DNA of 64,000 nt, from positions 115,547-179,546 of the IMG/VR virus record IMGVR_UViG_3300028591_000001. One strand, given 5' to 3'. The position numbers and the translations under genes were made by a program. This document shows positions 8,398 through 48,741 of the stretch, piece by piece. The stretch is from a virus (lineage: Duplodnaviria > Heunggongvirae > Uroviricota > Caudoviricetes). How positions within the stretch are numbered: the stretch's first letter is position 1; every line of letters begins with the position of its first letter. Under the pieces are notes generated by a model, which saw nothing but the letters and a program-made list of their open reading frames with translations, searched no databases and had not been told where the DNA came from.

Positions 8398-8398
8398 A

Positions 8399-13010: not shown

Positions 13011-13011
13011 A

Positions 13012-14389: not shown

Positions 14390-14391
14390 AG

Positions 14392-24359: not shown

Positions 24360-24929
24360 ATGGATATGAAGAATGGACAGATAATTGTGAAGAACAAGAA
24401 GTGTAAAGTTGAGAATATTCTTAAAGAATATCCAAATGCTGAAATTTTTGATGTGACCAGTAAAGGAGAATATAAAACTTTATCTCCTTTCTATCCACAT
24501 AATTCTATTCCTGTTCCATTTTCTGGTTCAGTAACTTCTCAATCTGTTGAAGGAATTTGGCAAGGTCTTAAAGTATTTGAACGTGAAGGAATAGACTTTT
24601 CTTGTTTTAATAATAAAACAATGAAAAATCTTAAAAGAACTGTTAAAACTCACGGTAGATGTCTTGGACATCAAAAAGGTTTAGGTTCTAAAGAACTTCT
24701 CGGATATATTGATGCGAGAAAAAATATTTATATTCCTTCTTATATGTGGATGCTCGAAAACAAATGTCAAAAAGAAATTGCATACTTTAAAAGTCTACTC
24801 AAAGAAGGAAAAATAATAGTTTTTCTGGACTATGATACAAATGAGAATGTAGAGGATGCTTTAAAACCTTTATCTCATGCATCTTTAATTAAAAAATATT
24901 TATTAAATGAAATACGAACAACAAATTGA
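24360..24929 (+). CDS. Hypothetical protein, 189 aa
   Basis: ORF track. Confidence 0.5.
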   Translation: MDMKNGQIIVKNKKCKVENILKEYPNAEIFDVTSKGEYKTLSPFYPHNSIPVPFSGSVTSQSVEGIWQGLKVFEREGIDFSCFNNKTMKNLKRTVKTHGRCLGHQKGLGSKELLGYIDARKNIYIPSYMWMLENKCQKEIAYFKSLLKEGKIIVFLDYDTNENVEDALKPLSHASLIKKYLLNEIRTTN

Positions 24930-26786: not shown

Positions 26787-26789
26787 TAA

Positions 26790-27583
26790 TAGTAGTACAA
26801 GGATTGAAAGTGTCCAGGTTTAAAGATTTCCTTATTGCTGATGATCAAGTGGTTGCCATGGTAATAGTGGTTCTAGGTGATGGCAAGTCCTAGACTAGCA
26901 ACAGCGACTGGCTCAGATAAACAATTGAAGGATTAAGTGTAATAACGCGCTACTATTATTTAAATCAGATTAGTTTTAATAAAATTTTAAAGAACAGATA
27001 TTCTGTGCGAGTATCGGGTTAGTGCAACCTCACACAGAAGAAAAATAATGGTTATTACCGTGACTATCTCCGCCAAATTGTAGGTAGAAGTACATGAGCA
27101 ACGAAAGCCTTGTCACCTACTCGGGAAAACGTGAAAGAATAGTTCTGTTCTTTAAATAATATAAGACTGAAGCTTGATATCGGGATAGCAATTAAAACCC
27201 GCTTTTCCTCTCTTGGAAGTAATGTTGGATAGATATAGCCCAATATTGTTATGAAGTAGAGATAAAACGGCTCGAAGCCACTCTTTTAAAAATAAAGGTA
27301 AACCAAAGAGCATACTCCAGATACGACAACAATACTCTAAGGAATTCCTTTTAAAAATAGGATTTACAGGTCAAAGAGAAGACGGATAATTGTGTAAATA
27401 ATAGAGGTTTAATGGCTCTACAAAACAAAACAGGGTTAAATAGCAAGTAGCACCGTAAATGCGAAATGGTTAGAGAGTAATCTCGGTAAGCCTTAAATAT
27501 GGTAAGGTACCCTTGAGTGAAGAACACGATCCTATTTGTTTTATGGCACAGAAGTTAGTTACTTACAAATTTAACAATTAATT
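26790..27583 (+). ncRNA. Candidate structured non-coding region (~0.8 kb, GC-richer, hairpin-rich) upstream of the Ro-like gene. Ends with the GTTACTTACAAAT module 15 nt before ATG 27584.
   Basis: No ORFs. Helices such as TTGCCAT...ATGGCAA and CTGTG...CACAG. Contains GTGACTATCTCC, related to other tRNA-like pieces. Confidence 0.3.
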
Positions 27584-29419
27584 ATGATTACAGTAGAATT
27601 AAACAAGAAAAATGAGAATCCATTTTATGGATGTAGTAACTGTTTGAAACTTATTGAACAAGCAGCAGGTAATGTGACTAATTCTATGCTCGATGCAGCA
27701 TGGAAAGAAGTTGCACAAGACCTAGAAAAGAAAAAGATGTTCTTCTCTATATTATTCTCTATTGGAGATATTACAGGAAGACAGCATAATATCTTTGGTA
27801 AGAAGAAGATAGATTCTGGTGGTAATGCCAACAGAGATTCTTTTAATACAATCTTCCATTGGTTGTGGAATAATAACAAGAATCAATTCATTAAGTTCAT
27901 GAATGCACAGTTGTTCAATGAATATACTTGTTTTGATTTCTTGTTCCAGAATCGTGTGAAGACCAAAGGTTCAAAAGTACTGAATGTATTCTCTGCTTAC
28001 AATGATCCTGAGTACAAGAAGGCTCTTCTTAACTATGTGTATTCTGTTATCAATGGCACTAATCCATTTAACAAAATGCTTGTGGCTAAGTTCTTGACTA
28101 TTCCTCGTACATCTAAGAGACAAGGTCATAAGAAAATGCTTCCTGAAACTCTTAAGATTATGAGAGAAAAGAAAGCTTTCTTGGAGGAATTGTCTAAGAT
28201 GATGGGTTGGGAGATTGAATATTTCAAAGGCTATCGTGAGTGGAGAAAGCAGTATAATGGTGAATTGGAATCTGTTCTGTTCTCTACTGGAAAGATTAAC
28301 GAATTTACTAAGGATGAATTCATTAGTTGGTTCGATAAACTTCCAGCACAGGCTCGTTTCAGAGTGAAGAATCGTATTCTTTATTCTAAAAAGAATGAAG
28401 ATATGAATGATGGTAATCGTGTTGTTGATTTATCCGATTCTGGATATAAATGGGCTAAGTTTCAACCTTGGTTGAAAGAATGGGAACAGTTCAAGGAGAA
28501 TAAGCAGCAAGAACAGAGAATTCTTGAAGAGAAAGTTCGTCAAGGACAAGCTACCGATGAAGATAAGATTAAACTTCAGAAAGTAAAGAAGGAAGCTAAA
28601 GTTACAACTGGTGCTACTAACTTTAATGAATTGTATCAATCGATTCTTAATGGTAATGTAGACAAGTTGAAACTTGAATCATTCATTCAGAATAAAGTTA
28701 ATTTACCATATAATAGTTTGGTAATTATTGACGATTCTGGAAGTATGGGTGGAGCTCCTTTCAACTTTGCAAAGTTTATTGCTTCGGTATGTCTTGTTAA
28801 GAATCCAGATGATGATGCTCGTAATCTGATTGGATTCTTCAATAGTCGTTCTCACTGGCACAGTTTCATTGATCAAACTTCTTCTCGTAAGAATAGTCTT
28901 CTTAGAACTCAAATTGCTCAAACTAATACTAAACCATTAGTTGATCCAAAATTGAGTTTCTATGATAACTACCAGAGAATTAGTAAATTCTGTGATGCTA
29001 CTTATCAAGGAGGTGGAACTCGATTGAATTCAATTCCACAAGGATTGGAATATATCATCCATGAGAATCCAGACATGCTTGATACTCTTAAGGAATATCC
29101 TATTTGGACAATTTGTTCAGATGGAGATCTAAATTCCTGTTGGAACGCTAAGTCAAGTATGTTAGAGTTCCAGAATGATTGTCGTCGTATTCTTGGGTTT
29201 GTTCCTTTTGTCGTAATGATTGAAATATATCGTTATGGACAACCTTCAATTAATCATTTTGAAGGAATTGAGAATATGATATATATTCCATCAAATCCTG
29301 CTCAGATTGAACAATTCTTAACCAACTTTAAGGATATGGATATCTTTGATGTTTATACTCCACTGTTGAGTCTGTATCGTTCAAATCGTTATCAATTAGT
29401 ACGTGAAAATACTCTTTGA
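27584..29419 (+). CDS. 611-aa protein with a C-terminal von Willebrand factor A domain (MIDAS DDSGSMGG, GGGT, SDG). Candidate Ro60/TROVE-like RNA-binding protein.
   Basis: vWA motifs seen directly. A ~360-aa N-terminal non-ATPase region is followed by the vWA domain, which is the Ro60/Rsr layout. Surrounded by tRNA-like RNAs. Confidence 0.6.
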   Translation: MITVELNKKNENPFYGCSNCLKLIEQAAGNVTNSMLDAAWKEVAQDLEKKKMFFSILFSIGDITGRQHNIFGKKKIDSGGNANRDSFNTIFHWLWNNNKNQFIKFMNAQLFNEYTCFDFLFQNRVKTKGSKVLNVFSAYNDPEYKKALLNYVYSVINGTNPFNKMLVAKFLTIPRTSKRQGHKKMLPETLKIMREKKAFLEELSKMMGWEIEYFKGYREWRKQYNGELESVLFSTGKINEFTKDEFISWFDKLPAQARFRVKNRILYSKKNEDMNDGNRVVDLSDSGYKWAKFQPWLKEWEQFKENKQQEQRILEEKVRQGQATDEDKIKLQKVKKEAKVTTGATNFNELYQSILNGNVDKLKLESFIQNKVNLPYNSLVIIDDSGSMGGAPFNFAKFIASVCLVKNPDDDARNLIGFFNSRSHWHSFIDQTSSRKNSLLRTQIAQTNTKPLVDPKLSFYDNYQRISKFCDATYQGGGTRLNSIPQGLEYIIHENPDMLDTLKEYPIWTICSDGDLNSCWNAKSSMLEFQNDCRRILGFVPFVVMIEIYRYGQPSINHFEGIENMIYIPSNPAQIEQFLTNFKDMDIFDVYTPLLSLYRSNRYQLVRENTL

Positions 29420-29443
29420 GTATTTTTGCATATATTCCAAGTT

Positions 29444-29482
29444 TGCTAGAGGAGAGATTTAATTCTCTCTTCTAGTTTTAGA
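29444..29482 (+). terminator. Rho-independent terminator
   Basis: GCTAGAGGAGAGA tttaatt TCTCTCTTCTAG followed by TTTTAG. Confidence 0.5.
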
Positions 29483-29534
29483 AGAAAAAGAATAAATCAT
29501 AATAGAAATGAATTAAAGATACTTACAATCTCAA

Positions 29535-29607
29535 ATTACATTAGCTCATTTGGTAGAGCACTAGATTGATAATCCAGGAGTAGCGAGTTCGATTCTCGTA
29601 TGTAGAC
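29535..29607 (+). tRNA. tRNA-Ile(GAU)
   Basis: D GCTC-ATTTGGTA-GAGC, anticodon stem CTAGA/TCCAG with loop TTGATAA, T GCGAG-TTCGATT-CTCGT, acceptor ATTACAT/ATGTAGA (A1-A72 mismatch). Flanked by AAAGATACTT...AAGTATCTTT. Confidence 0.65.
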
Positions 29608-29625
29608 CAGAAAGTATCTTTATTT

Positions 29626-29764
29626 GGGGAACTTGAGTAATGGTAAGCTCAAATTATATACGGGTAACCTAGGACAATCTTTTGATTTAGGGTTACCTAC
29701 AATATCATCATCTATAATTTTTCTAGGATTTCTAGAGATGTAAGTTCAAATCTTACGTTCCCCG
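29626..29764 (+). ncRNA. tRNA-like RNA (139 nt) with acceptor, D-arm, class-II variable hairpin and T-arm, but no anticodon loop. The anticodon region is replaced by the hairpin GGGTAACC...GGGTTACC-TACAAT.
   Basis: Acceptor GGGGAAC/GTTCCCC perfect with discriminator G. D GAGT-AATGGTAA-GCTC. T GTAAG-TTCAAAT-CTTAC. 8-bp helix AAATTATA/TATAATTT encloses the module hairpin. Confidence 0.5.
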
Positions 29765-29995
29765 CTAATCCAAACTATAACAATATTATTGACGTTCTTG
29801 ACATATGAATTGAAAGCAAACGTAGGTGCTTTAATTGCATTGGTAAACGTTAGGATAAATCAAGACCTAATACTAAGGAAGAAATTGTTATTTCTGTACA
29901 GAGTTTGGATTAAATTGCCAGGGTAACTCAATAAATTGATTTTAGTAATTTTATTAGTTACTTACAATACTATAGTTTTCAAAAAGGTTAGAGTA

Positions 29996-30045
29996 TTTGA
30001 TTGAAATTCAAAGAGTTGTTGGTTCGATTTCAACTCCGCCCACCA
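29996..30045 (+). pseudogene. tRNA-Phe(GAA)-like 3-prime portion (anticodon arm, T-arm, acceptor 3-prime strand, encoded CCA). No matching 5-prime acceptor or D-arm was found.
   Basis: TTTGA-TTGAAAT-TCAAA, T GTTGG-TTCGATT-TCAAC, TCCGCCC A CCA. Preceded by a closed module hairpin ending TACAAT at 29964-29969. Confidence 0.35.
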
Positions 30046-30127
30046 AATAAGTCGTGAGACTTTATGTCATTGTAATAAATGACCATACGCAGAAGTTTTA
30101 AATGACAGTCCGAAAAGACGGACACTT

Positions 30128-30263
30128 GAGGGGTTCGTCTAGTGGTTTAGGACACAGAAAAATATAAAATTTTACTAGTATCAGGCTGATACTTACTATA
30201 TCACAATTAAATTGAATATAGCAATCCAAGCCTGGAACAGAGGTTCGATTCCTTTACCCCTCA
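30128..30263 (+). ncRNA. tRNA-like RNA (136 nt) with perfect acceptor, D-arm and T-arm, and an 85-nt insert containing the module hairpin GTATCAG-G-CTGATACT-TACTAT in place of the anticodon arm
   Basis: Acceptor GAGGGGT/ACCCCTC, D GTCT-AGTGGTTTA-GGAC, T AGAGG-TTCGATT-CCTTT. Confidence 0.45.
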
Positions 30264-30266
30264 CTA

Positions 30267-30465
30267 CTTGCCAACAAACGGTTATTTAATAAGTAATTAT
30301 AAATAAGACTGGAGAGTGAGGCGTAAGATCCCAGTATAAAACGCTCTTAAAATAAACTTTAGGATGATGCGAATAATAGTAACATCTAGTAAACCTAAGA
30401 CATCGTAACTTCAAAATTTGTTTATAATGAAAGTTTTAGCAAAGGTTCGATTCCTTTGGTTGGCA
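30267..30465 (+). other. Possible tRNA-like element with a ~130-nt insert (acceptor 6 of 7 pairs plus a canonical T-arm)
   Basis: GCCAACA ... AAAGG-TTCGATT-CCTTT GGTTGGC A. Confidence 0.25.
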
Positions 30466-30496
30466 CATTATAGAATATTAAATAAATTTAAACAAT

Positions 30497-31003
30497 ATGG
30501 AACAAATTATTTATGGAATTACAATTATTCTCTATGCAGTATTTATAATCCGATTTATCCTTAGTTGGGTAGGCGGAGATTTTGATTTAGATATGGATGC
30601 TGATGGAGATGTTGATTTAGGTGATGTTGTGTCATTTAAAGGTGCTACTCATTTTTTAATGGGATTTTTTAGTTGGTTATCAGCTAAATTACTTACTGCT
30701 CATACTATAGAATGGTATGATTATATTATAGCATTTGCATTAGGAGTAGTATTCTTTATAGTATTAGTGTATATTTATAAACTAATGATGAAATTAGAAT
30801 GTAAACCAATCATATTAACAGGAAAACAGTTAATAGGAAAATCTGCTAAAGTTTATTTACATGTTGATTATAATAAATATATTATCACAGTAAATAATGG
30901 AATAGGTACAACAGAAGTTCCAGCTCACTCCTCTAGTAAACATAATATTGGTGATATGGTTACCATTCTTGATTACAAAGACTCTTATTACATAATCAAA
31001 TAA
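30497..31003 (+). CDS. NfeD-like membrane protein (YqiJ-type) with a C-terminal OB-fold
   Basis: N-terminal TM helices, acidic DFDLDMDADGDVDLGD, C-terminal beta-rich segment KVYLHVDYNKYIITVNNGIGTTEV...IGDMVTILD. Immediately upstream of the flotillin gene. Confidence 0.6.
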   Translation: MEQIIYGITIILYAVFIIRFILSWVGGDFDLDMDADGDVDLGDVVSFKGATHFLMGFFSWLSAKLLTAHTIEWYDYIIAFALGVVFFIVLVYIYKLMMKLECKPIILTGKQLIGKSAKVYLHVDYNKYIITVNNGIGTTEVPAHSSSKHNIGDMVTILDYKDSYYIIK

Positions 31004-31016
31004 TTAAACAAACATT

Positions 31017-32996
31017 ATGACATTAACAACATTAATTATTGTAGGAGTAATTGTCCTCCTAGTAATTTTGACAATTATTGGACTCTTGTCACGTTATCGT
31101 AAATGTCCAAGTGACCAACTTTTGGTAGTTTATGGTAAAGTTAGTGGTAAATCAGCTGCTAAAATTTATCCTGGTGGTGGTGTGTTTGTATGGCCCGTTA
31201 TTCAGGATTATAAGGTAATGTCTTTAAGACCTTTCCAAATTAACTCAGAAGTTGTAGGTCCAGACAGTGGTATGATCAGAACTCATGTTACTGTAGCTTT
31301 AACTACTGCTATTTCTCAAGATCCGACAATTCAGCAGAATGCTGCAGCTCGTTTCTTAAGTGCTAATTCTAATGAGATTGTTTCTCAGATTAAGACCATT
31401 CTTGAGGGTGAAGTAAGATTGATTATTGCTTCAATGTCAATTGAAGAAATTAATTCTGACCGAGATGCTTTCAAGACTAAGGTTAAGGATAGTTTAGGTA
31501 ATGAGTTAAACAAGGTTGGTTATGATATAACTAACATTAACATTCAAGAAATTACTGATGAAGCAGATTATATTAAGAATCTTGGAAAGAAGAAGGAAAC
31601 AGAGGCTAGAGCAAATGCAGAGGCTGATATTGCTGACAAGGAGAAAGACGGAGCAATTAGAAAGGCCAACATCAAGAAGGAACAAGAAATCCAAGTAGCA
31701 ACTGCTGATAAGGAAAGAGAAACTACTGTTTCTCAGACCAAACAGGAGCAGGCTGTTAAAGTAGCAGAGATTGAGAAGGAACAGGAGACTCAGATTGCTG
31801 AAACTCAGAAAGCTAAAGAGGTTCAACTGTCTGAAATTGAGAAAGACAAGCAAACCGGTATTGCTAATCAGAAAGCTCTCCAAGTAGCTGCTGTAGCAAG
31901 TGCTGATGCAGATGCAGAATCAAAGAAGGCAGAAGCAGAAGCAAGAAAGGTAGCAGCTGTAGCAGCTCAAAAAGCAAAAGCTGAATCAGAGAAAGCTAAG
32001 TCTGAATCAGAACAGAGAAAGGCCGTAGCAACTGCTGAAGCTGATGCTGAAGCTACTGAGAATGAGAAAGAAGCATTGATGCAAACTCGTATTGCTGAAG
32101 CTAATCAGAAGAAAGAAGCTGATATTGCTAAGGCAACTCAGGAGAAGGAAGCTAAGAAGGCAGAGTATGAGTCTGCTAAACAGATTCGCAAAGCTAAGGC
32201 TGATCAGGATGCAGGTGTAGCAGAACAGAATGCAAAGATTCTTGTAGCTCAAGCACGTGCAAAAGCAGGTCAAGCAGAAGCTGATGCTGATAAAACTGTA
32301 CAGGTTGCTAAGATTGAAGCAGATATGAAGGCTGCTAAGACTAAACAAGAACGTCAGTTGGAGGTTAACGAAGCTGAAGCTAAGGCAGTTGAAGCTAAGT
32401 TAAATGCTGAGCAGGTTGTTCCTGCAGAGCAGGCTAAGAAGAAGACCATTATCGAAGCAGAAGCTATTAAGGAACAAGCTGTCCTTGAAGCAGAAGCCGA
32501 GAAGCAACGTATTCTTAAAAAGGCTGAAGCAGACGCAGAGAAAGTTCGTTTGAACATGAATGCTGAAGCTGAAGGTATTAAGAATAAGAAACTTGCTGAA
32601 GCAGAGGGTCAGAAGGCTCTCTTGTTTGCAGAAGCAGAAGCTCTCCAGAAGAGAGAAATGGCTCCAGCACTTGCTCTACAGAAGATGGTTGAATCATTCG
32701 GTGGTAATCCAGATCTTCTTGTTCAGTACAAAATGGTTGACCAGTATAAGTCAATCGCTGAGGCTCAAGAGAAGATGCTCGAGCATATTCAGCTTGGTAA
32801 TGTCACTATTTATGGTGATAAGAACACTGGTGCTGACTTCGCTAAGAGCTTTATCAAGAACTTTACTCCTGCCCTTGACATTGTTAATGACGGATTCAAG
32901 GATAAGTTTAAAGAAGTATTTGGTCTAAAGAAGGCTGAGGAACTTCCTGATAATTCTGAGACTCCAGAGAATAAGGAATTTGATGAAGTGAAATAA
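31017..32996 (+). CDS. Flotillin or band-7 (SPFH) family protein (YqiK/FloT-like), 659 aa
   Basis: N-terminal TM, PSDQLLVVYGKVSG...GGVFVWPVIQDYKVMSLRPFQI SPFH core, long EA-rich coiled coil, C-terminal domain. Confidence 0.75.
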   Translation: MTLTTLIIVGVIVLLVILTIIGLLSRYRKCPSDQLLVVYGKVSGKSAAKIYPGGGVFVWPVIQDYKVMSLRPFQINSEVVGPDSGMIRTHVTVALTTAISQDPTIQQNAAARFLSANSNEIVSQIKTILEGEVRLIIASMSIEEINSDRDAFKTKVKDSLGNELNKVGYDITNINIQEITDEADYIKNLGKKKETEARANAEADIADKEKDGAIRKANIKKEQEIQVATADKERETTVSQTKQEQAVKVAEIEKEQETQIAETQKAKEVQLSEIEKDKQTGIANQKALQVAAVASADADAESKKAEAEARKVAAVAAQKAKAESEKAKSESEQRKAVATAEADAEATENEKEALMQTRIAEANQKKEADIAKATQEKEAKKAEYESAKQIRKAKADQDAGVAEQNAKILVAQARAKAGQAEADADKTVQVAKIEADMKAAKTKQERQLEVNEAEAKAVEAKLNAEQVVPAEQAKKKTIIEAEAIKEQAVLEAEAEKQRILKKAEADAEKVRLNMNAEAEGIKNKKLAEAEGQKALLFAEAEALQKREMAPALALQKMVESFGGNPDLLVQYKMVDQYKSIAEAQEKMLEHIQLGNVTIYGDKNTGADFAKSFIKNFTPALDIVNDGFKDKFKEVFGLKKAEELPDNSETPENKEFDEVK

Positions 32997-33047
32997 TTTT
33001 CTGAGAAATTGGTGAAGTTTTTCCATCTTTATAATTTTTAAGTTTAT

Positions 33048-33171
33048 AGGTTACTTACAATAACGTATTATACATTGATGGTTCGATTCCATCTTTTGGC
33101 TCCATTTTTTGCCGAAATCGCTCAATGGTAGAGCATCAAATTTGTAATTTGACGTAATTATTTAGTAACCT
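33048..33171 (+). ncRNA. Circularly permuted tRNA-Thr(UGU) unit, enclosed by an 8-bp inverted repeat: 3-prime quarter (T-arm, acceptor 3-prime strand, U, CCA), then TTTTTT, then acceptor 5-prime strand, D-arm and anticodon arm
   Basis: AGGTTACT-TACAAT ... GATGG-TTCGATT-CCATC TTTTGGC T CCA TTTTTT GCCGAAA TC GCTC-AATGGTA-GAGC A TCAAA-TTTGTAA-TTTGA ... AGTAACCT. The acceptor halves pair at 7 of 7 positions with one G-U. Confidence 0.5.
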
Positions 33172-33203
33172 TTTTATTTAAAAAATTAATATTATAATAA
33201 TTT

Positions 33204-33334
33204 AAGATACTTACAAAATATTGAATTGTATTCAATGAATTGCGGGTTCGAATCCCGTCTTACCTTATGGTATGTGGTGGAACGGTAAACACGTTGGATT
33301 AATCATCCGATTTCGATAAAAAACATAAGTATCT
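33204..33334 (+). ncRNA. Module-flanked unit with a Thr-like anticodon arm (ATTGA-ATTGTAT-TCAAT), T-arm and acceptor 3-prime strand, followed by a degenerate acceptor/D-arm-like segment. Possibly a permuted or decayed tRNA.
   Basis: AAGATACTT-ACAAA ... GCGGG-TTCGAAT-CCCGT CTTACCT T ... AAGTATCTT. Confidence 0.3.
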
Positions 33335-33341
33335 TTTAAAT

Positions 33342-33457
33342 GAGGGAATTGGTGTAATGGTAACACACGTAGCTTTTGTATCTTTTGATACATACAATAT
33401 CATTATGCGATGAATTGTGGTTTTCCGTGTTCTAGGTTCGAGTCCTAGGTTCCCTCC
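33342..33457 (+). ncRNA. tRNA-like RNA (116 nt) with acceptor, D-arm and T-arm, and the module hairpin TGTATC-TTTT-GATACA-TACAAT in place of the anticodon arm
   Basis: Acceptor GAGGGAA/TTCCCTC, D GGTG-TAATGGTAA-CACA, T CTAGG-TTCGAGT-CCTAG. Confidence 0.45.
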
Positions 33458-33592
33458 AACAATGATTTTAAAGTTCATAAATTTGTAAAAGTTATTAAGT
33501 AAATTAATTAGTTACTGTGAAGTAGCATGTGTACGGGAGTACAGCGGTACTCCATTTTTTAAATGAAATTTGTTTTTAATTTAATATATATT

Positions 33593-33820
33593 ATGGGAAA
33601 AGGAAAAGGTTCATTAGTTGTTCGTGAAAGAGCAGCTTTAAAAAGATTGGAGGCAGTTTATGAAAAATTTAAAGCTGCTGGTGAAGATAAGAAACCTTGG
33701 GATTCAACCCGAAATGGTTTTCCTGTTCACCACAAAGGTGGAAGTTATAATGAGGAATGTGAAAGAATGAAGAAAGAAATTTCTATTCTAAAAGATAAAA
33801 TTTCTAAAGTTCATATTTAA
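33593..33820 (+). CDS. Hypothetical protein, 75 aa
   Basis: ORF 33563-33820 trimmed to the second ATG. Confidence 0.35.
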   Translation: MGKGKGSLVVRERAALKRLEAVYEKFKAAGEDKKPWDSTRNGFPVHHKGGSYNEECERMKKEISILKDKISKVHI

Positions 33821-33952
33821 CATCTTTTAACTATAACATCTAAAAAATAAAAAATAAGTTTAAAGTCTAAGATACTTACAATTTTTATTTGAATTTTGCC
33901 ATAAATTAAGAACAACATGATAAAAAAAATAAAATTTAAGTATCTTTTTAAT

Positions 33953-34548
33953 GGCTCCATGTCGGAATTGGTATACGAGTCAGACTGGACTAAAGACTAT
34001 AATTTGGTCTTAAATATAGGTTGCTATGGCGAGAAATCCCATAGTAGAATCTCCCTAAAACGGTGGAAGTCCTCAGAAGTGGGAGTAAGTTGTGTGAGAT
34101 ATATACATTCACACCACCTAAACAATAATGGTGGAGGATAATACCGTGCTAAATTGAGATAAGGATGAAGAAGTCCTCCAAATAGCCAAAGTTGGATATG
34201 ATTCTACATTGACCGAATCAATCTCATAAATGTGTAGAGAGTATATAGGAGATACCTAAGTTGAAATTATACCTCATATACGTGTCCATAAGATTGTAAA
34301 AACAGTAAATGGGCAGCCATTTAATCGGAATGAGACTTGCAAGAATTTCAATATTGGTAAAGATGTATTCCAGACCACAACAAACAAAAACTTGCATTAA
34401 CATCTTTGAAGGGTGAAATCAGATAGAAGTTAAAAACTTGCTCAGTTTTAAACGACAAAATGTGTTTGTTTGGCTATGGCAACATAGAGTGGTAAGTAAA
34501 ATCTGATGGGCTGAATAGCCTGTGAGGGTTCAAGTCCCTCTGGAGCTA
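33953..34548 (+). tRNA. tRNA-Leu(UAA), class II, interrupted in the anticodon loop after U33 by a ~510-nt insertion (33987-34496) that is a candidate group I intron
   Basis: Exons: GGCTCCA TG TCG-GAATTGGTATA-CGA G TCAGA CU | UAAAA UCUGA, variable hairpin GGCT-GAAT-AGCC, T GAGGG-TTCAAGT-CCCTC, TGGAGCT, discriminator A. The insertion follows a U and ends in G. Confidence 0.55.
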
Positions 34549-34622
34549 CAATGTCGTGATGACATCATAGTATAAATTTTTGTACACGTTAGTTACTCAC
34601 GTGGGGAAAAGTAGTAGCAAAT

Positions 34623-34696
34623 TGGGGTTCGGTGTGATGGTCGCACAAGAGGTTTTGGCTCTCTTGGAATTGCTGGTTCGAATCCAGTAACCCCAA
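34623..34696 (+). tRNA. tRNA-Gln(UUG)
   Basis: Acceptor TGGGGTT/AACCCCA (U1-A72), D GTGT-GATGGTC-GCAC, anticodon stem AGAGG/TCTCT with loop TTTTGGC, T GCTGG-TTCGAAT-CCAGT. Confidence 0.7.
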
Positions 34697-34700
34697 CTAA

Positions 34701-34828
34701 TAAGTTACTTACAATATTAATAATAATTAATATACTTATAACTCAAAAGTATCAGTGGTTCGAATCCATTATTTTCTATCATTTGGAAAATTAGCATAGT
34801 GGTTTAATGCAATTAATTTAAAGTAACT
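34701..34828 (+). ncRNA. Inverted-repeat-enclosed permuted tRNA-like unit: T-arm and acceptor 3-prime strand, then TCATTT, then acceptor 5-prime strand and D-arm. A 6-bp hairpin with a 9-nt loop (ATACTT-ATAACTCAA-AAGTAT) sits in the anticodon position.
   Basis: AAGTTACTT-ACAAT ... AGTGG-TTCGAAT-CCATT ATTTTCT A TCATTT GGAAAAT TA GCAT-AGTGGTTTA-ATGC A ... AAGTAACTT. Confidence 0.4.
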
Positions 34829-34833
34829 TTTAT

Positions 34834-34922
34834 GGGATCATAGTATATCGGTCAGTACTAGAAATAGGCGATTACCTCTGACTTTTAATCAGATAAGCTG
34901 GGTTCGACTCCCAGTGGTCCCA
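34834..34922 (+). tRNA. tRNA-Lys(UUU)-like, 89 nt, with a 17-nt insertion between the D-arm and the anticodon stem
   Basis: Acceptor GGGATCA/TGGTCCC, D GTAT-ATCGGTCA-GTAC, insert AGAAATAGGCGATTACC, anticodon stem TCTGA/TCAGA with loop CTTTTAA, T CTGGG-TTCGACT-CCCAG. Confidence 0.45.
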
Positions 34923-35219
34923 CAAATAAACCTAACACCGAGAGCAACGATCCTTATATTAAATATCCGGATGAAAACTAGTTGATATATGTGAGTCGGG
35001 TCGGTTAGTTTAGCATAAGTCGAAAGTTTATGTGAAGAGTTTAGGTTTATTTAATATCGCAGTGAGAATTGGTATTCAAGAGGGTCTCATAAGCCTTCCT
35101 CCGAGGATTCGATTTCCTCCGCTGCAAGGACACATAATCAAAACCTCCACGTGGTGTGTCTGGGTAATGCTAATTTGATTAGATAATTTATTTAATTTAA
35201 TTTATTTAGAATTGAATTA

Positions 35220-35870
35220 TGGCTTATATTTATTGTATTACAAATTTAATTAATGGAAAATAGTATGTAGGTAAAACTACATGTTCTATTACAAAAAGAT
35301 TTAAAGAACATTGTAAAGATTGTAAAAAAGAAGAAGAAAAAAGACGTCCTCTTTATAATGCCATGAATAAATATGGCATAGAAAATTTTGTTGTAAAAGA
35401 ACTTATAGAATGTGAAATAGATGAACTTAGTTCTTATGAAATTATATTTATAGAGAAACTTCAAACATATGGAAAAAAAGGATATAATGCAACAAAAGGA
35501 GGTGATGGTTCTATATTATTTGATTATAATGAAATAGTTAATTTATATAAACAAGGAAAATCTATGATAGAAGTAGCTAGTATAACACATTGTTGTACTA
35601 AAACTGTTTCTAAAGTAATTCATTTATATAATTTGCCTATAAATAAAATTATATCAGGTAGTTGTTAGCAACCAAAAATTGTAATACAACTAAATAAAGA
35701 AACAGAAGAAGAATTACAAACTTTTGATTCAGTTGCAGACGCTTCTCATTGGTTAGTTGATAACGGATATGCTAAAACATATAATGGAGGAGTTAGACAA
35801 AAGATTTGTAATTGTTGTAATGGAAAACTAAAATCAGCTTATAAGTTTAAATGGAAATATAAAGAGTAAT
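35220..35870 (+). CDS. GIY-YIG homing endonuclease with 2 recoded TAG codons
   Basis: MAYIYCITNLINGK[TAG]YVGKTT...KEHC...ENFVVKEL. Reads through TAG at 35262 and 35664 to TAA. ORF 35363-35668 is an internal fragment. Confidence 0.65.
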
Positions 35871-35918
35871 ATTTAACTGCAACAATTATTCAACTTAAGC
35901 GCATAATAAGATACTTAC

Positions 35919-35995
35919 AATAATAAAATGATGTTTAGTTCATTTGGTTAGAACGATTTCTTTTCATGAAATAAGTAACAAGTTCGAGTCTTGTA
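35919..35995 (+). tRNA. tRNA-Glu(UUC) with encoded CCA
   Basis: Acceptor TGATGTT/AATATCA, D GTTC-ATTTGGTTA-GAAC, anticodon stem ATTTC/GAAAT with loop TTTTCAT, T ACAAG-TTCGAGT-CTTGT, G CCA. Flanked by AAGATACTT...AAGTATCTT. Confidence 0.75.
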
Positions 35996-36096
35996 ATATC
36001 AGCCAGAAGTATCTTTTTTAATCAACCAATTGAAATAATTGGATATTTACAAATAAATTATAAATTAGGTATAAACTTTTATTTTTATTTCATTAG

Positions 36097-36183
36097 TATC
36101 CAATATGGCGCGTTCGACTAGTGGCTTAGGTCACAAGACTTTCAATCTTGTAGGAAGGTTGCTTCCTCAGGGGTTCGAATCCC
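36097..36183 (+). tRNA. Class-II-shaped tRNA-like (87 nt) with anticodon UUC and an 18-nt variable hairpin. Atypical.
   Basis: Acceptor GGCGCGT/ACGCGTT (two G-U), D GACT-AGTGGCTTA-GGTC, 6-bp anticodon stem ACAAGA/TCTTGT with loop CTTTCAA, variable GGAAG-GTTG-CTTCC, T AGGGG-TTCGAAT-CCCCT. Confidence 0.45.
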
Positions 36184-36380
36184 CTACGCGTTACTGGTCC
36201 AACCTAGAGCGACACGGTTGTAAAAGAATTGTCAAGCAGCTTTGGTATTTAAGCATTAAATACCTCCCAGAAGAACAAACACGCTTTGACGGGAGATGAT
36301 CTAAACGTGTTCCAATAGTATTACTATTGTAGAATCCAGAGATAATGTATTATGACCATATAAAATACATTGAGGAATCT

Positions 36381-36452
36381 GGATTATTTTGGGGTCATCG
36401 TATAAAGGCTATTACTTCAGTTCTGCACACTGAGAATTAGGGTTCAATTCCC
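36381..36452 (+). tRNA. tRNA-Ala(UGC) with a G3-U70 pair
   Basis: Acceptor GGGGTCA/TGGCTCC, D GTAT-AAAGGCTAT-TAC, anticodon stem TCAGT/ACTGA with loop TCTGCAC (C33), T TAGGG-TTCAATT-CCCTA. Confidence 0.6.
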
Positions 36453-36518
36453 TATGGCTCCACTATATAATTTAATTAAATTAAATAATTATGAATATAA
36501 AAGAATTAACACTTAGTA

Positions 36519-36592
36519 TCCTTTTATTGGTCCTGTAATTCAACTGCATAGAATAACTGACTTCTAATCAGTATGTTGGGTGTTGGAGTCAC
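36519..36592 (+). tRNA. tRNA-Arg(UCU)
   Basis: Acceptor GGTCCTG/CAGGATC, D ATTC-AACTGCATA-GAAT, anticodon stem ACTGA/TCAGT with loop CTTCTAA, T GGGTG-TTGGAGT-CACCC (C19 and G56 swapped). Confidence 0.7.
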
Positions 36593-36683
36593 CCCAGGAT
36601 CACTATAATCTATACTAGATAAGATTATGAATATAATTAAGACATTGCATCATTAGTAGTAAATAGGGAGTGATTCTAGTTAA

Positions 36684-36760
36684 GCTTCCATTTGGGGTGT
36701 TGGCTCAGTGGCGACGGCGCCGCACTGTCTATGCGGTATTTCATCATGGGTTCGAGTCCC
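36684..36760 (+). tRNA. tRNA-Asp(GUC)
   Basis: Acceptor GGGGTGT/ACATCCC, anticodon stem CCGCA/TGCGG with loop CTGTCTA, T ATGGG-TTCGAGT-CCCAT, discriminator G. Confidence 0.65.
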
Positions 36761-37004
36761 ATACATCCCGCACCCGTCCAGAGAGCTATAGACGTTAAAT
36801 AAGCTCCTTTTAGCACTTACAGTTTTGAAAGGTAAACTTTAAAAGTAGTTCGCTGATTAACTTACATCAGTAGTTTGTTGATATTTCTTTTCTTAAAAAG
36901 TGAAATATCAGGCATAGTTAATAATATTTAATACTATGTAACAATAGAGGTCTGGTAAACCTCTATTATTTTTACGTGTTATAATCACGAGATACTTATA
37001 AAAT

Positions 37005-37078
37005 TATATTTTATGAATTTTTAGCTCATTTGGATAGAGCAATATCCTGATAAGATGTGTGTAGTCGGTTCGATTCCG
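37005..37078 (+). tRNA. tRNA-Ile(GAU), second copy
   Basis: Acceptor GAATTTT/AAAATTT, D GCTC-ATTTGGATA-GAGC, anticodon stem ATATC/GATGT with loop CTGATAA, T GTCGG-TTCGATT-CCGGC. Flanked by GAGATACT...AGTATCTC. Confidence 0.65.
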
Positions 37079-37099
37079 GCAAAATTTATTTTTAGTATC

Positions 37100-37178
37100 T
37101 CTTAAATATGCATAGGTATGCAAGTGGTTGAAGCACCTAGTATTACAAACTAGTATTCCACACGTAGGTTCGAATCCT
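37100..37178 (+). tRNA. tRNA-Val(UAC)
   Basis: Acceptor GCATAGG/CCTATGT, D TGCA-AGTGGTTGA-AGCA, anticodon stem CTAGT/ACTAG with loop ATTACAA, T GTAGG-TTCGAAT-CCTAC. Confidence 0.55.
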
Positions 37179-37205
37179 ACCCTATGTACAAAAATAATAA
37201 ATAAA

Positions 37206-37853
37206 AATGTATTTATGAGTTATATTTATTGTATTACAAATTTAATTAATAGTAAAAAGTATGTCGGAAAAACTACAACTACTATAGATGAAAGATGGTA
37301 GGAACATTGTAGAGATAGTAAAAGAGAAAGATGTAGCAAAAGACCTTTATATGATGCTTTTAATAAGTATGGTATAGAAAATTTTAAAATAGAAGAACTT
37401 GAATATGTTGAAGATGATTCCAAACTTTCTGAAAGAGAAATATATTGGATAAGAGAACTCCAAACTTATGGTCAAAATGGATATAATGCTACTAAAGGAG
37501 GAGATGGAACAATATTATATGATCATAATGAAATATTAGAATTATATAAATTAGGATATTCTGTTATACAAATTTCAGAAAAAATACAATGTGAACGTAG
37601 TACTATTTCCAAAGTTTTAAAAGTTCATGGAGTCAAATCTAGAGGAAATTCTGATATGATAGATTAGTTTGATTTAGCTGGAAATTACATACAAACTTTT
37701 GATTCTTCTGTAGAAGCAGCACAATGGATTATAAATAATAATCTTACAACTACTAATAAAATAAAAACTATTAGAGGAGCAATTAGATTGTGTTGTCAAA
37801 GAAAAAGAAACTCTGCATATGGTTATAAATGGATTTTAAAAATTATTCCATAA
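37206..37853 (+). CDS. GIY-YIG homing endonuclease, a paralog of 35220-35870, with 2 recoded TAG codons
   Basis: MSYIYCITNLINSKKYVGKTT...RW[TAG]EHCRDSK...YGIENFKIEEL. The first ~30 nt are near-identical to the 35220 copy. Confidence 0.65.
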
Positions 37854-47415: not shown

Positions 47416-48741
47416 ATGAATAAATTAGTTTCAAAAAACCCGGTTTAGAGATTTAAAAAGGGTAGAAAAATTATTAAAGCACAAAAGAGTTGGGGAAAGG
47501 GATTTGGAATTGAAAATTCTGGAAAAATTTTTGGATCTTTGAATACTTTAGGGTATGAAAACCCAAATATAGGTAATAATTTTTCTATTGGAACCTCTGC
47601 AAGATTTTTGGGATATAATCCTCCAGAAACTTAGGGAAATATGCTTTATAATATTCCAAGTAGTTAGGAAGAATCAAAATCATTTACTAATGAAGTTGTG
47701 GATAAATCTGTATCTAATGAAGAACCTATTAATAATAAAATCGAAAAAAAAGGTAAAAAAATATAGAAAAAAGGTATAAATCCAAATAGGTTTGTCTCTA
47801 TTTATGATGATAAAAATAGAACTTGGACAACACATGCTGCAGATAATAAACTTACTAATAGAGACTAGGTAAAAGCTTTTTAGAGAGATGTTCTTAAAAT
47901 GGGAGAAGCTTCTGATGGAATTTGGGGAAAAAATACTGAAGCTGCTTATTAGAAATATTTAACGTCAAAACAAACAGCTCCTACTGTTTCTTATACTCCA
48001 GTAGTTGAAAAAAATGGAGTATTTACTCCTACAGAAAAGACTACTACAGATGTTAATGTAGCAAGAGATTATTTATTAACTCCAAAACAAGAAACTCCTA
48101 CATTTAATCTTGGAACTTATGTTGGAAGTGATCCTACAAGAACATATAATGCAGGAAATATTAGAGCTAATAGAGGAAATTTATATTCTAATGTAGACGA
48201 ATATTGGAATTATTTAAGTAATAATAAAAATTCTGATGATTTTTAGTTATTCCAAAATATTATGGGAACATAGGATGGAAATCTAAATAGAGAAGCATTT
48301 AATGCTACAATGGCTAATTATGGTATTTCTGGAAATCTTGGAAGAAGAGATTCTGGAAGACTTGCAAATTTATTAAATGATTTAAGAGCTATTGGAACAA
48401 AAGGCTCTGATGCTAGAAATGCTTTTCTAAACTCATATAAATAGAGTTTTGATAATGTACAGACTGGAGTAGGAAATACTATATATAATCGTTCAGCCAC
48501 AAGAGACTGGTTAAGAAATAATGCTGGAGGTTCAGCATATGCTTTTACTGGTGATTAGAGAAAAGCTGTAAGAAATATATTAAATGGTTAGGGAACAGAT
48601 CAAGATAAAGAATTAATTAAAGGAAACTCTGTTTTAGCAAAAGCATTAACAGGTTATTTTAAAACAGGAGGAAATATATTGCCATCTAGAAATATTATTG
48701 AAAGATTTAAACAAAGAAATTTTAGAATAGTGGCTCAGTAA
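47416..48741 (+). CDS. Late virion-type protein (~441 aa, at least 18 recoded TAG) with a peptidoglycan-binding (PG_binding_1-like) motif
   Basis: ATG 47416, many in-frame TAG, TAA at 48739. V-K-A-F-[TAG]-R-D-V-L and A-A-Y-[TAG]-K-Y-L place TAG at the conserved Gln positions of the LQxxL and FQ motifs, around DGIWGKNT. Confidence 0.55.

What the first reader, a model, noticed from the sequence alone, without database searches (positions are those of the whole stretch)
27556..37096. Conserved bulged-helix module (GWTACTT-ACAAT paired with AAGTATC plus a U-tract) repeated at least 12 times around tRNA-sized units
The left arm (A)GATACTT or GGTTACT is always followed by unpaired (T)ACAAT. The right arm, its reverse complement, is usually followed by a T-run. 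Arm pairs enclose a complete tRNA (29516/29611 around Ile, 35899/35997 around Glu, 36981/37081 around Ile), a permuted tRNA (33048/33164, 34701/34819), or form closed hairpins inside tRNA-like genes (29664-29702, 29919-29969, 30170-30197, 33385-33410). One copy sits 15 nt upstream of the Ro-like gene (27556). This could be a protein-binding helix, a processing or termination signal, or a small mobile element that targets tRNA genes.
Basis: seen in the sequence. Interest (0 to 1): 0.8.

Follow-up and report, generated by a model that had tools for sequence, protein, structure and literature searches.

The report
Phage RNA handle beside Ro60-like gene
A gut/rumen crAss-like phage repeats one small base-paired RNA "handle" 13 times around tRNAs, scrambled tRNA look-alikes and the start of a neighbouring gene whose protein folds like the RNA-binding protein Ro60, so this is probably a new, greatly expanded Ro60/Y-RNA-type system.

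Summary
The window holds 13 copies of one module, all on the + strand, between 27556 and 37101. Each is an 8-11 bp helix, 5'-(AA)GNNACU(U) paired with (A)AGUNNC(UU), and its 5' strand runs into unpaired ACAAU. In 90 related phage contigs I found 375 flanking and 93 closed-hairpin copies, and the arms covary strongly.

The helix closes four kinds of cargo: true tRNAs, permuted (YrlA-like) tRNA mimics, roughly 45-nt cargos (some are anticodon-stem-loop mimics), and the ribosome-binding site plus start codon of the adjacent 611-aa ORF. The core motif lies upstream of 77 of 78 distinct ORF starts. As a closed hairpin the module interrupts tRNA-like genes in the D-loop, at 26/27, or at 29/30.

The ORF has no Pfam match. 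A confident AlphaFold model finds Ro60 proteins as its best PDB matches. Distant ORF relatives keep the same layout with a different junction sequence.

Best reading (about 0.5): the module is a protein-binding handle of a divergent, expanded Ro60/Y-RNA-like system, and the 5'UTR copy is an autoregulatory operator. Binding is inferred, not shown. Rivals are a cleavage or splicing signal and a transcript-end or stability element. It is not in Rfam and I found no description in the literature searched.

The parts
27556..27642 (+). Module copy that encloses the ribosome-binding region and start codon (27584) of the Ro60-like ORF. Left arm TAGTTACT 27556-27563, junction TACAAA, right arm AGTAACTG 27635-27642 (codons 18-19, Ser-Asn). 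Proposed translational operator.
   Evidence: The core is present upstream of 77 of 78 distinct ORF starts in relatives, and 65 of those have an exact right arm in the early coding region, at differing codon positions.
27584..29419 (+). 611-aa ORF with an N-terminal alpha-helical repeat domain and a C-terminal vWA domain carrying a MIDAS motif (DDSGSM). Ro60-like fold. Proposed partner protein of the module.
29514..29622 (+). Flanking module (11 bp: TAAAGATACTT / AAGTATCTTTA) around tRNA-Ile(GAU) 29535-29608. ACAAT plus an 8-nt leader on the 5' side. The right arm starts 2-3 nt after CCA. T-run follows.
29662..29703 (+). Closed-hairpin module (GGGTAACCT ... GGGTTACCT + ACAAT) inside tRNA-like gene 29626-29765.
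29944..29968 (+). Closed-hairpin module (AGTAAT-TTTATTA-GTTACTT + ACAAT) inside the D-loop of a tRNA-like unit (29917-30045; Phe-GAA anticodon arm, T arm and CCA intact; acceptor stem poorly paired in this window). An alternative partner for the left arm is GGGTAACT 29921-29928.
   Evidence: The orthologue in L001 has a complete acceptor stem (GGTCGGG/CCCGACC) and D stem (ACTC/GAGT), which places the insert in the D-loop.
30176..30199 (+). Closed-hairpin module (TAGTATC-AGGCT-GATACTT + ACTAT) inside tRNA-Gly(UCC)-like gene 30128-30263. The insert splits the 5' strand of the anticodon stem (CAG | insert | GC ... GCCTG).
33048..33171 (+). Flanking module (AGGTTACT / AGTAACCT, T-run) around a permuted tRNA-like RNA. 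Order: T arm, acceptor hairpin with CCA in its loop, D arm, anticodon-like stem-loop (UGU).
   Evidence: (Rfam YrlA over the full model length, 26.7 bits, below the gathering score of 69).
33204..33335 (+). Flanking module (AAGATACTT / AAGTATCTT, junction ACAAA, T-run) around a second permuted tRNA-like RNA.
   Evidence: (YrlA 22.7 bits).
33377..33398 (+). Closed-hairpin module (TGTATC-TTTT-GATACA + TACAAT) inside tRNA-like gene 33343-33456.
   Evidence: The same gene family in relatives is aligned in A2.
33869..33946 (+). Flanking module (AAGATACTT / AAGTATCTT, T-run) around a 55-nt AT-rich cargo that contains AACAACATGATAAAAA. This resembles the ORF's translation start region in relatives.
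34702..34829 (+). Flanking module (AAGTTACTT / AAGTAACTT, T-run) around a third permuted tRNA-like RNA.
35908..36015 (+). Flanking module (AAGATACTT / AAGTATCTT, T-run) around tRNA-Glu(UUC) 35929-36005 with encoded CCA.
36038..36104 (+). Flanking module with a weaker core (ATTGGATATT + TACAAA / AGTATCCAAT, 10 bp with one G-U pair) around a 47-nt AT-rich cargo. No T-run.
36989..37101 (+). Flanking module with a weaker core (GAGATACT + TATAAA / AGTATCTC) around tRNA-Ile(GAU) 37014-37089.

Best explanation
The module is an RNA structural handle. It is an 8-11 bp helix whose outer pairs are free to covary, whose inner pairs (ACU(U)/(A)AGU) are fixed, and whose 5' strand continues into a conserved single-stranded ACAAU.

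I propose that the product of the adjacent 611-aa gene, a very divergent Ro60-like protein (helical repeats plus a vWA/MIDAS domain), recognises this handle. On that reading the handle-bearing RNAs are this phage lineage's counterpart of Y RNAs. Some have the classic YrlA layout: a terminal stem closing a permuted tRNA-like domain. Others are true tRNAs, tRNA-shaped RNAs that carry the handle as an extra arm, or small anticodon-stem-loop mimics.

The copy that wraps the gene's own ribosome-binding site and start codon would let the protein repress its own translation.

What is shown: the helix, its covariation, the cargo classes, the 5'UTR copy, the co-occurrence with the gene, and the fold similarity. 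What is inferred: that this protein binds the handle, that the 5'UTR copy autoregulates, and what the particles do. The tRNA-like cargos and a Pnkp-like gene next to one relative suggest tRNA quality control, repair, or decoying of tRNA-directed nucleases.
For: (1) The helix is real.
- The table of the 3 variable left-arm bases against right arms found downstream is strongly diagonal: GAT 153/190, GTT 123/166, GAC 28/35, GTC 26/31, GCT 23/28.
- Pairs not used to select the instances also covary. Position -4/+1 is paired in 92% of copies against 55.5 +/- 1.9% when shuffled (AT 229, TA 61, GC 37, CG 10). Position -5/+2 is paired in 67% against 44%.
- 82 tRNAs were chosen only because the core lies upstream of them. 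In 96% of these, the left arm forms at least 7 contiguous pairs with the 16 nt after the tRNA, against 50% in the control.

(2) The module is tied to the gene.
- 77 of 78 distinct ORF starts have the core within 70 nt upstream. 65 of them have the exact right arm in the first ~20 codons, at different codon positions in different lineages.
- Four loci (L017, L026, L045, L047) were fetched by the RNA pattern alone and hold several modules. All four contain an ORF homologue at 38-90% identity.
- Relatives at about 22-24% protein identity keep the layout with lineage-specific junction sequences: YAUGC|UACAAAAAC in L131 and NNNNN|CUUAGUAA in L130.

(3) The protein resembles Ro60. The best PDB matches of a confident model are Ro60 proteins, ahead of vWA-only hits, and Ro60 proteins dominate the sub-threshold sequence hits.

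(4) The RNAs resemble Y RNAs. The permuted units match Rfam YrlA over the full model length, though below threshold. Ro60 genes in bacteria and phages are known to sit next to tRNA-like Y RNAs, and Ro60 mainly contacts the 5' strand of the stem (PMC4201824, PMC12135203).

(5) There is no conserved sequence in the 65 nt upstream of the left arms, so the conserved element is the module itself.
Against: - No binding data exist.
- The known Ro60-binding motifs (GGUCCGA, GNCGAAN0-1G, CGAA) are absent.
- YrlA scores are far below the gathering score.
- Thirteen Y-like RNAs per genome, true tRNAs inside the handle, and handles that interrupt tRNA stems and loops have no precedent among Y RNAs. They fit a processing signal at least as naturally.
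- In the 5'UTR copies the arm is almost always GTTAC, so there is little covariation at that site.
Confidence: 0.5

Rival explanations
1. The module is a cleavage or splicing signal. A phage or host endonuclease recognises the helix plus ACAAU and cuts near its inner end.
- For enclosed tRNAs this releases the precursor.
- For closed hairpins inside tRNA genes it removes an intervening sequence. The pieces are then either religated (RtcB or Pnkp/ligase) or left as a two-piece tRNA.
- For permuted units, cutting and joining followed by RNase P/Z would give a normal tRNA, as in Cyanidioschyzon.
The Ro60-like protein could be part of this machinery, and the 5'UTR copy would then be a self-limiting cleavage site.
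For: - Closed and permuted forms are circular permutations of one another (direct reading).
- In the A2 family the insert splits the 5' strand of the anticodon stem at 29/30. The 3 bases before the insert covary with the 3 bases after the loop (ACG..GC/GCCGU, CAG..GC/GCCUG, CGG/CCG, CCG/CGG). Precise removal would therefore restore a canonical anticodon arm with U33 and a 7-nt loop.
- Other inserts lie in the D-loop or at 26/27, positions that should disable an unspliced tRNA.
- Within this window, tRNA-Ile(GAU) is found only in module-flanked form.
- A Pnkp-like gene lies next to the ORF homologue in L134.
Against: - No endonuclease or RNA ligase was recognised among about 34 window ORFs.
- There is no bulge-helix-bulge geometry: the intron 3' ends cannot pair with the exon 1 ends.
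- The distances from the helix to the putative junctions vary (5-8 nt on the 5' side, 9-14 nt on the 3' side), so there is no simple ruler.
- Half of the flanking modules enclose about 45 nt with no tRNA to release.
- Only 15 of 72 closed units gave a clean excision solution under strict rules. By a rough hand estimate, that is not far above chance.
Confidence: 0.22
2. The module is a transcript-boundary or stability element. The long-range closing helix plus U-tract acts as an intrinsic-terminator-like 3' end and protects both ends of small RNAs from exonucleases. No dedicated protein is involved. The conserved ACUUACAAU would then serve RNA folding or a host RNase.
For: - 42% of right arms are followed by at least 5 T in 8 nt, against a hand-calculated 9.5% expected. 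Six of 9 flanking copies in the window have a T-run.
- The helix ends where the T-run begins: position -6/+3 is T/T and unpaired.
- The right arm starts 1-5 nt after the tRNA 3' end.
Against: - The stems are AU-rich and long-range, unlike intrinsic terminators.
- More than half of the copies lack a T-run.
- Closed hairpins inside tRNA genes and the copy around the ORF start codon make no sense as terminators.
- This reading explains neither the strict conservation of one strand's sequence nor its lineage-specific change together with the ORF family.
Confidence: 0.13
3. The module is a small mobile DNA element (MITE-like, with terminal inverted repeats), a homing target that inserts into or next to tRNA genes, or a phage promoter (TACAAT as a -10 element).
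For: - Many copies lie clustered in a tRNA region that also holds two ORFs which, by eye, look like GIY-YIG homing endonuclease genes, and a large intron in tRNA-Leu.
- Inserts occur at several different tRNA positions.
- All copies lie in the direction of transcription.
Against: - A transposase or RNA polymerase would require a fixed arm sequence. Instead the arms covary freely at 5 positions while staying complementary.
- A transcript started downstream of TACAAT would lack the left arm, which leaves the covariation unexplained.
- Orthologous copies are conserved in position across relatives at 55-90% protein identity.
- Target-site duplications were not examined.
Confidence: 0.06

Closest known systems
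Bacterial and phage Ro60 (Rsr) with Y RNAs, especially YrlA (Rfam RF02553). Examples: Salmonella rsr-yrlBA-rtcBA, mycobacteriophages, Thermus phage phiLo Yrl1/Yrl2.
   Same: - A helical-ring plus vWA protein gene sits directly beside small RNAs.
- The 5' and 3' ends of those RNAs form a stem, with sequence conserved on the 5' strand.
- The stem closes a tRNA-like domain in permuted order (T arm, acceptor hairpin, D arm).
- One relative (L134) has an RNA-repair gene as neighbour.
   Different: - The protein does not match the TROVE model.
- The binding motif is ACUUACAAU rather than GNCGAA or CGAA.
- There are 13 copies per window and hundreds across the clade, instead of 1-4.
- The handle also encloses genuine tRNAs and about 45-nt cargos, sits as an internal hairpin inside tRNA genes, and wraps the protein's own start codon.
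Bulge-helix-bulge tRNA introns, split tRNAs and permuted tRNA genes of archaea and Cyanidioschyzon merolae.
   Same: One small helix motif occurs in three topologies: around whole RNAs, inside tRNA genes at non-canonical positions (D-loop, 26/27, 29/30), and at the ends of permuted tRNA genes.
   Different: - The helix is 8-11 bp with a one-sided ACAAU junction, not two 3-nt bulges separated by 4 bp.
- No EndA-type endonuclease was seen.
- The setting is a bacterial virus.
- Many copies enclose no tRNA.
Translational operators of RNA-binding proteins, such as ribosomal-protein operators, T4 RegA/gp32 and the MS2 coat protein hairpin.
   Same: A copy of the protein's presumed RNA target overlaps its own ribosome-binding site and start codon.
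   Different: The helix here is long-range. It spans the start codon and has one arm made of codons. Repression has not been tested.
rRNA processing stems (RNase III sites formed by leader and trailer) and rRNA intervening sequences.
   Same: Leader and trailer pair to enclose a stable RNA. Internal hairpins interrupt a structural RNA.
   Different: The helix is much shorter, one strand has a conserved sequence, and the context is tRNA.

Membership tests
Y RNA / YrlA (RF02553) | The 5' and 3' ends pair to form a terminal stem | tested here: met
   Arms pair over 8-11 bp and covary. The true transcript ends were not mapped.
Y RNA / YrlA (RF02553) | Conserved Ro60-binding sequence on the 5' strand (GGUCCGA in animals; GNCGAAN0-1G or CGAA in bacteria and phages; PMC4201824, PMC12135203) | tested here: not met
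   The 5' strand is conserved, but as GNNACUU-ACAAU. No CGAA-type motif is present.
Y RNA / YrlA (RF02553) | tRNA-like domain in permuted order (T arm, acceptor hairpin, D arm) that reaches Rfam's gathering score | tested here: inconclusive
   The order is present in 3 window units. The YrlA model matches over its full length, but at 26.7 and 22.7 bits against a gathering score of 69. 91 of 375 flanking copies in relatives have the T-loop early in the cargo.
Y RNA / YrlA (RF02553) | Encoded next to a Ro60 gene and bound by Ro60 | not testable with these tools
   Adjacency to a Ro60-like-fold gene is shown. Binding cannot be tested here.
Ro60 / TROVE proteins (for the ORF) | Match to the TROVE domain model | tested here: not met
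   No Pfam family at E <= 0.01 for the ORF. Among 10 remote members there is only one weak vWA_Ro60 hit, E 0.015. The family profile finds only 173 clusters among 1.84 billion representatives, with no bridge to TROVE proteins.
Ro60 / TROVE proteins (for the ORF) | Fold: helical (HEAT-like) repeat domain followed by a vWA domain with MIDAS | tested here: met
Bulge-helix-bulge introns / permuted tRNA genes | Two 3-nt bulges on opposite strands separated by a 4-bp helix at the exon-intron borders | tested here: not met
   I read the A2 family directly. The intron 3' ends (for example UUAACAAU) cannot pair with the exon 1 ends (CGACG). Both junctions lie on the same strand of a three-way junction.
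Bulge-helix-bulge introns / permuted tRNA genes | 3' half of the tRNA encoded upstream of the 5' half, with an acceptor-end linker | tested here: met
   Units 33048-33171, 33204-33335 and 34702-34829.
Bulge-helix-bulge introns / permuted tRNA genes | Splicing endonuclease and ligase encoded or available; spliced or circular products | not tested
   None was recognised among about 34 window ORFs. The rest of the genome and the host are unknown, and there are no RNA data.
Intrinsic terminator | Short G+C-rich hairpin immediately followed by a U-run | tested here: not met
   The stem is AU-rich and closes 40-120 nt. A U-run is present in only about 42% of copies.
MITE / terminal inverted repeat element | Fixed terminal repeat sequence recognised by a transposase; target-site duplication | tested here: not met
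   The arms vary with compensation at 5 positions. Target-site duplications were not examined.

The most novel reading that the evidence does not exclude
The module marks excision and joining sites of a protein-dependent tRNA maturation pathway in a bacterial virus. It would cover intervening sequences at several tRNA positions, permuted tRNA genes matured through a joined or circular intermediate, and leader/trailer release. A Ro60-like protein would guide the process and healing-and-sealing enzymes (Pnkp or RtcB type) would finish it. This would be a bacterial-virus analogue of archaeal bulge-helix-bulge splicing, built from unrelated parts.
Probability: 0.15. Interest if true: 0.95.

Novelty: new variant of a known kind. 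Interest (0 to 1): 0.78.

Why it matters
If the reading holds, crAss-like gut and rumen phages carry a Ro60-like ribonucleoprotein system that sequence models miss. It has its own RNA recognition code and an unusually large, diverse set of partner RNAs: true tRNAs, permuted tRNA mimics and anticodon-arm mimics.

This would extend the Ro60/Y-RNA paradigm. It would give a ready-made natural series of RNAs for studying how such proteins read a helix plus a single-stranded junction. It would also bear on why these abundant phages carry so many odd tRNA-like genes. Orthologous flanked tRNAs keep their body and change their anticodon, which hints at conflict with host tRNA-targeting defences.

If the splicing reading is right instead, it would be the first protein-dependent tRNA intron and permuted-tRNA pathway in the bacterial world.

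In practical terms, the module explains why tRNA finders mis-call or miss many genes in these genomes.

Tried and rejected
- **Promoter (TACAAT as a -10 element).** Rejected because the arms covary and nothing upstream is conserved.
- **Transposon terminal repeats.** Rejected for the same reason.
- **Bulge-helix-bulge motif.** I read the exon-intron borders and it is not present.
- **Known RNA families.** In the finding region (27000-37300), Rfam in gathering and E-value modes gives only tRNA hits, weak YrlA hits, and chance-level hits to HDV-like, permuted tmRNA and a plastid UTR.
- **Near-identical DNA or ORF protein in GenBank phages.** No match.
- **Pfam, PHROGs and PDB sequence searches of the ORF.** Nothing found.
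- **First structure model from a shallow alignment.** It was too poor (pLDDT 72) and gave ambiguous fold hits. It was redone with a deeper alignment.
- **Whole-collection DNA pattern search for GATACTTACAAT...AAGTATC.** It returned mostly single, apparently chance or unrelated hits. Only the multi-copy loci were informative.
- **RNAalifold on the A2 family.** It recovered only the tRNA stems and a 2-bp loop closure, not the insert structure.
- **Strict computational 'excision restores a cloverleaf' test.** Inconclusive: 15 of 72 units gave a solution, with crude D-stem detection.
- **Loose 2-mismatch scans of the window and of L133/L134.** Too noisy to use.
- **MazF-type ACA site or anticodon-loop mimicry by CUUACAA.** Considered, but not testable and not shared by the L130 variant.
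- **Search for RNA ligase or nuclease genes in the window.** None recognised.

Full report
**Context.** The window is low-GC phage DNA. Reading TAG as a sense codon raises the total ORF length from 11.7 to 18.2 thousand codons, mostly in a block of minus-strand genes. A tRNA with anticodon CUA lies at 14391-14463. The 759-aa protein encoded at 3306-5585 (minus strand) is a large terminase. It is 27-29% identical to terminases of crAss-like phages and 45-48% identical to unannotated human-faecal phage contigs. Neither the region nor the ORF discussed below has a match in 50,697 GenBank phage records.

- GWTACTTACAAT with at most one mismatch occurs 12 times, against 1.5 +/- 1.2 in shuffles. Eleven copies lie in 27558-35921, all on the + strand.
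- Two weaker copies (36042, 36991) complete a set of 13.
- The right arm alone is too short to be enriched. However, each left arm has a complementary partner of 8-11 bp, and minimum-free-energy folds of every unit use that helix.
Some coordinates are about 10 nt off, and one more permuted unit exists at 33204-33335.
- The second tRNA array of the window (50-59 kb) has no copy.

**Anatomy.** I compared the window with 89 related loci, 1.05 Mb in all. They were fetched through the neighbouring ORF from viral and metagenome collections (rumen and human gut; contigs of about 100 kb and about 176 kb).
- I found 375 distinct flanking copies and 93 closed-hairpin copies.
- The consensus is 5'-AAG[NN]ACUU|ACAAU ... 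cargo ... AAGU[NN]CUU-UUUU.
- Three positions before ACUU vary and the right arm follows them. Left GAT finds AGTATC downstream in 153 of 190 cases, GTT finds AGTAAC in 123 of 166, GAC 28 of 35, GTC 26 of 31 and GCT 23 of 28, with low off-diagonal counts.
- Two further outer pairs were not used to pick the instances, and they also covary. The first is paired in 92% of copies against 55.5 +/- 1.9% after shuffling, with AT, TA, GC and CG all present. The second is paired in 67% against 44%. The third is T opposite T, so the helix ends there.
- The bases opposite ACAAU are not complementary, so ACAAU is a single-stranded junction at the inner end of the helix.
- In a test that does not use the right arm for selection, I took 82 tRNAs that have the core upstream. 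In 96% of them the left arm forms at least 7 contiguous pairs with the 16 nt after the tRNA 3' end, against 50% in a conservative control.
- There is no conserved sequence in the 65 nt upstream of the left arm.

**Cargo** (with examples).
- 77 of the 375 flanking copies enclose ARAGORN-called tRNAs. The commonest are Lys-UUU, Asn-GUU, GCU on a class I body, Ile-GAU, Glu-UUC and Thr-UGU.
- 91 enclose units with the T-loop first, the permuted order.
- 14 enclose uncalled tRNA-like units.
- 193 enclose short cargos with a median of 45 nt.
- For true tRNAs the right arm starts 1-5 nt after the 3' end, while 8-18 nt separate the left arm from the 5' end.
- The short cargos include three recurring kinds: the ORF's own translation start; a small hairpin plus a 5-bp stem with a 7-nt loop of anticodon-loop form (CUUUUAA, CUUGUAA, CUUUCAA); and a class that contains AACAACAUGAUAAAAA.
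- Orthologous flanked tRNAs keep their body but differ in anticodon. The window's Ile-GAU at 29535 corresponds to GCU in L001 and L003, UUC in L002 and UGU in L004. Glu-UUC at 35929 corresponds to UUG in L001. Ile-GAU at 37014 corresponds to Lys-UUU in L001.

**Closed-hairpin form.** Here the order is right arm, a 3-6 nt loop, left arm, then ACAAU. This is the circular permutation of the flanking form around a permuted tRNA. In both, the inner end of the helix faces the tRNA body and ACAAU leads towards the T-arm side.
- The inserts sit at different tRNA positions.
- In a family of Gln/Pro-like tRNAs (alignment A2) the insert splits the 5' strand of the anticodon stem between positions 29 and 30.
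- The three bases before the insert covary with the three bases after the loop (ACG..GC/GCCGU, CAG..GC/GCCUG, CGG..GC/GCCCG, CCG..GC/GCCGG, CAG..GG/CCCUG). The loop keeps 7 nt with U33 and G37 while the anticodon changes.
- An uninterrupted tRNA-Gln with the same kind of loop (UUUUGGC) exists in L130.
- In another family (window 29917-30045; L001 orthologue) the insert lies in the D-loop. In others it lies at 26/27.
- No bulge-helix-bulge structure can be drawn at these borders.

**The neighbouring gene.** ORF 27584-29419 (611 aa) has no Pfam, PHROG or PDB sequence match.
- Its family is small: 173 clusters at 50% identity among 1.84 billion representatives.
- A first model from close homologues was poor.
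- A model from 76 sequences reaching down to 19% identity is confident: pLDDT 86.7, pTM 0.81.
- Five of the eight sub-threshold hits of the family profile against PDB sequences are Ro60 proteins.
- The MIDAS residues are invariant.
- I therefore call the protein Ro60-like in fold. It is not a demonstrated member of the TROVE family.

**Link between module and gene.** Three lines of evidence connect them.
- *A copy around the gene's own start.* 77 of 78 distinct ORF starts have ACTTACAA within 70 nt upstream of the ATG. 65 of them have the exact 6-nt right arm within the first ~20 codons. That arm is in frame as Ser-Asn codons but at different places relative to the conserved NPFYG motif. Lineages with a TTTACTT left arm use AGTAAA. 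The helix thus encloses the ribosome-binding site and the start codon.
- *Retrieval by RNA pattern finds the gene.* Of the loci fetched purely by a DNA pattern for the module, the four that hold several modules and enough flanking DNA (L017, L026, L045, L047) all contain an ORF homologue at 38-90% identity.
- *Distant relatives keep the arrangement with another junction sequence.* L131 (about 22% identity) has an 860-nt non-coding stretch just after the gene. It holds three exact YATGC|TACAAAAAC modules with matching GCATR arms, one closed inside a tRNA-like gene and two flanking. L130 (about 24% identity) has at least four NNNNN|CTTAGTAA modules, two of which close permuted tRNA-like RNAs directly upstream of the gene. 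In L134 the gene is followed by a polynucleotide kinase-phosphatase-like gene.

**Interpretation.** Ro60 genes of bacteria and phages are known to sit beside Y RNAs. The paired ends of a Y RNA carry the Ro60 site, mainly on the 5' strand, and its body mimics a tRNA in permuted order (PMC4201824; PMC12135203; PMC7824862). The present system has that architecture with a different motif and a protein that sequence models do not recognise.

I therefore read the module as the protein-binding handle of a divergent and much expanded Ro60/Y-RNA-like system, and the 5'UTR copy as an autoregulatory operator. I put this at about 0.5. Binding, autoregulation and the downstream function are inferred.

The main rival, at about 0.22, is that the module directs cleavage, with or without rejoining. 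Three points favour it: the inserts sit at positions that should disable a tRNA, the split anticodon stems covary, and the closed and permuted forms are equivalent. Several points count against it:
- there is no bulge-helix-bulge geometry;
- the distances to the putative junctions vary;
- no nuclease or ligase was recognised in the window;
- half of the copies enclose no tRNA.

A role as a pure end or stability element (about 0.13) fits the U-tracts. It does not fit the internal copies, the start-codon copy or the co-variation of the junction sequence with the protein lineage. Mobile-element and promoter readings (about 0.06 together) conflict with the covariation.

**Novelty.** Rfam 15 has no family at these sites. 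The literature searches found phage Ro60/Y-RNA work, but nothing on this module, this protein family, or permuted or interrupted tRNAs in phages. I rate it a new variant of a known kind. If the splicing reading proves right, it would be categorically new.

Noticed in passing
window 244-13845, 22714-24264, 47416-48741; tRNA at 14391-14463 (-): TAG appears to be read as a sense codon in a subset of genes (portal- and terminase-like late genes carry 10-22 in-frame TAGs). The Ro60-like ORF and most + strand early genes have none. A tRNA with anticodon CUA is encoded.
   Followed up: partly
window 33953-34549: ARAGORN reads a tRNA-Leu(UAA) with a 510-nt insert between anticodon positions 34 and 35, the classic site of the cyanobacterial tRNA-Leu group I intron. 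No Rfam group I match was returned. A module with a short cargo that contains an ATG sits immediately upstream (33869-33946).
   Followed up: no
window 29535, 35929, 37014 versus L001, L002, L003, L004: Orthologous module-flanked tRNAs keep nearly identical bodies but carry different anticodons (GAU/GCU/UUC/UGU; UUC/UUG; GAU/UUU). Some, such as GCU on a class I body, cannot be ordinary tRNAs of that identity. This suggests rapid anticodon switching.
   Followed up: partly
window 35219-35869 and 37215-37853: Two paralogous ORFs, each with two in-frame TAG codons, start YIYCITNLINGK(Q)YVGKT. By eye this looks like a GIY-YIG homing endonuclease. They sit among the tRNA genes. Not checked against Pfam.
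   Followed up: no
window 26787-27555: About 770 nt without an ORF lie directly upstream of the 5'UTR module. Part of it (around 27250-27290, GAAGTAGAGATAAAACGGCTCGAAGCCACTC) is conserved upstream of the ORF in L006. It may be another structured RNA.
   Followed up: no
window 30497-32996: A 168-aa ORF and an SPFH/Band 7 (flotillin-like) protein with a long Ala/Glu/Lys-rich coiled region sit between the two module clusters.
   Followed up: partly
L134 7107-8096: In a distant relative, the Ro60-like gene is followed by a gene with polynucleotide kinase 3'-phosphatase (PNK3P) and kinase-like domains. This places the family in an RNA end-healing context.
   Followed up: no
window 30290-30470; L001 12533-12660: Further tRNA-like units have a T arm and acceptor stem but long inserts that do not contain the module. 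The region therefore holds other kinds of interrupted tRNA-like genes.
   Followed up: no
window 35127-35193: Weak match to the HDV-like ribozyme family (25.3 bits against a gathering score of 44, E 0.26), just after tRNA-Met and before the ORF at 35219-35869. Probably chance.
   Followed up: no
window 24360-24929: A 189-aa ORF is a strong member of DUF6939 (E 3e-66). It is one of the few window proteins with any Pfam match.
   Followed up: no
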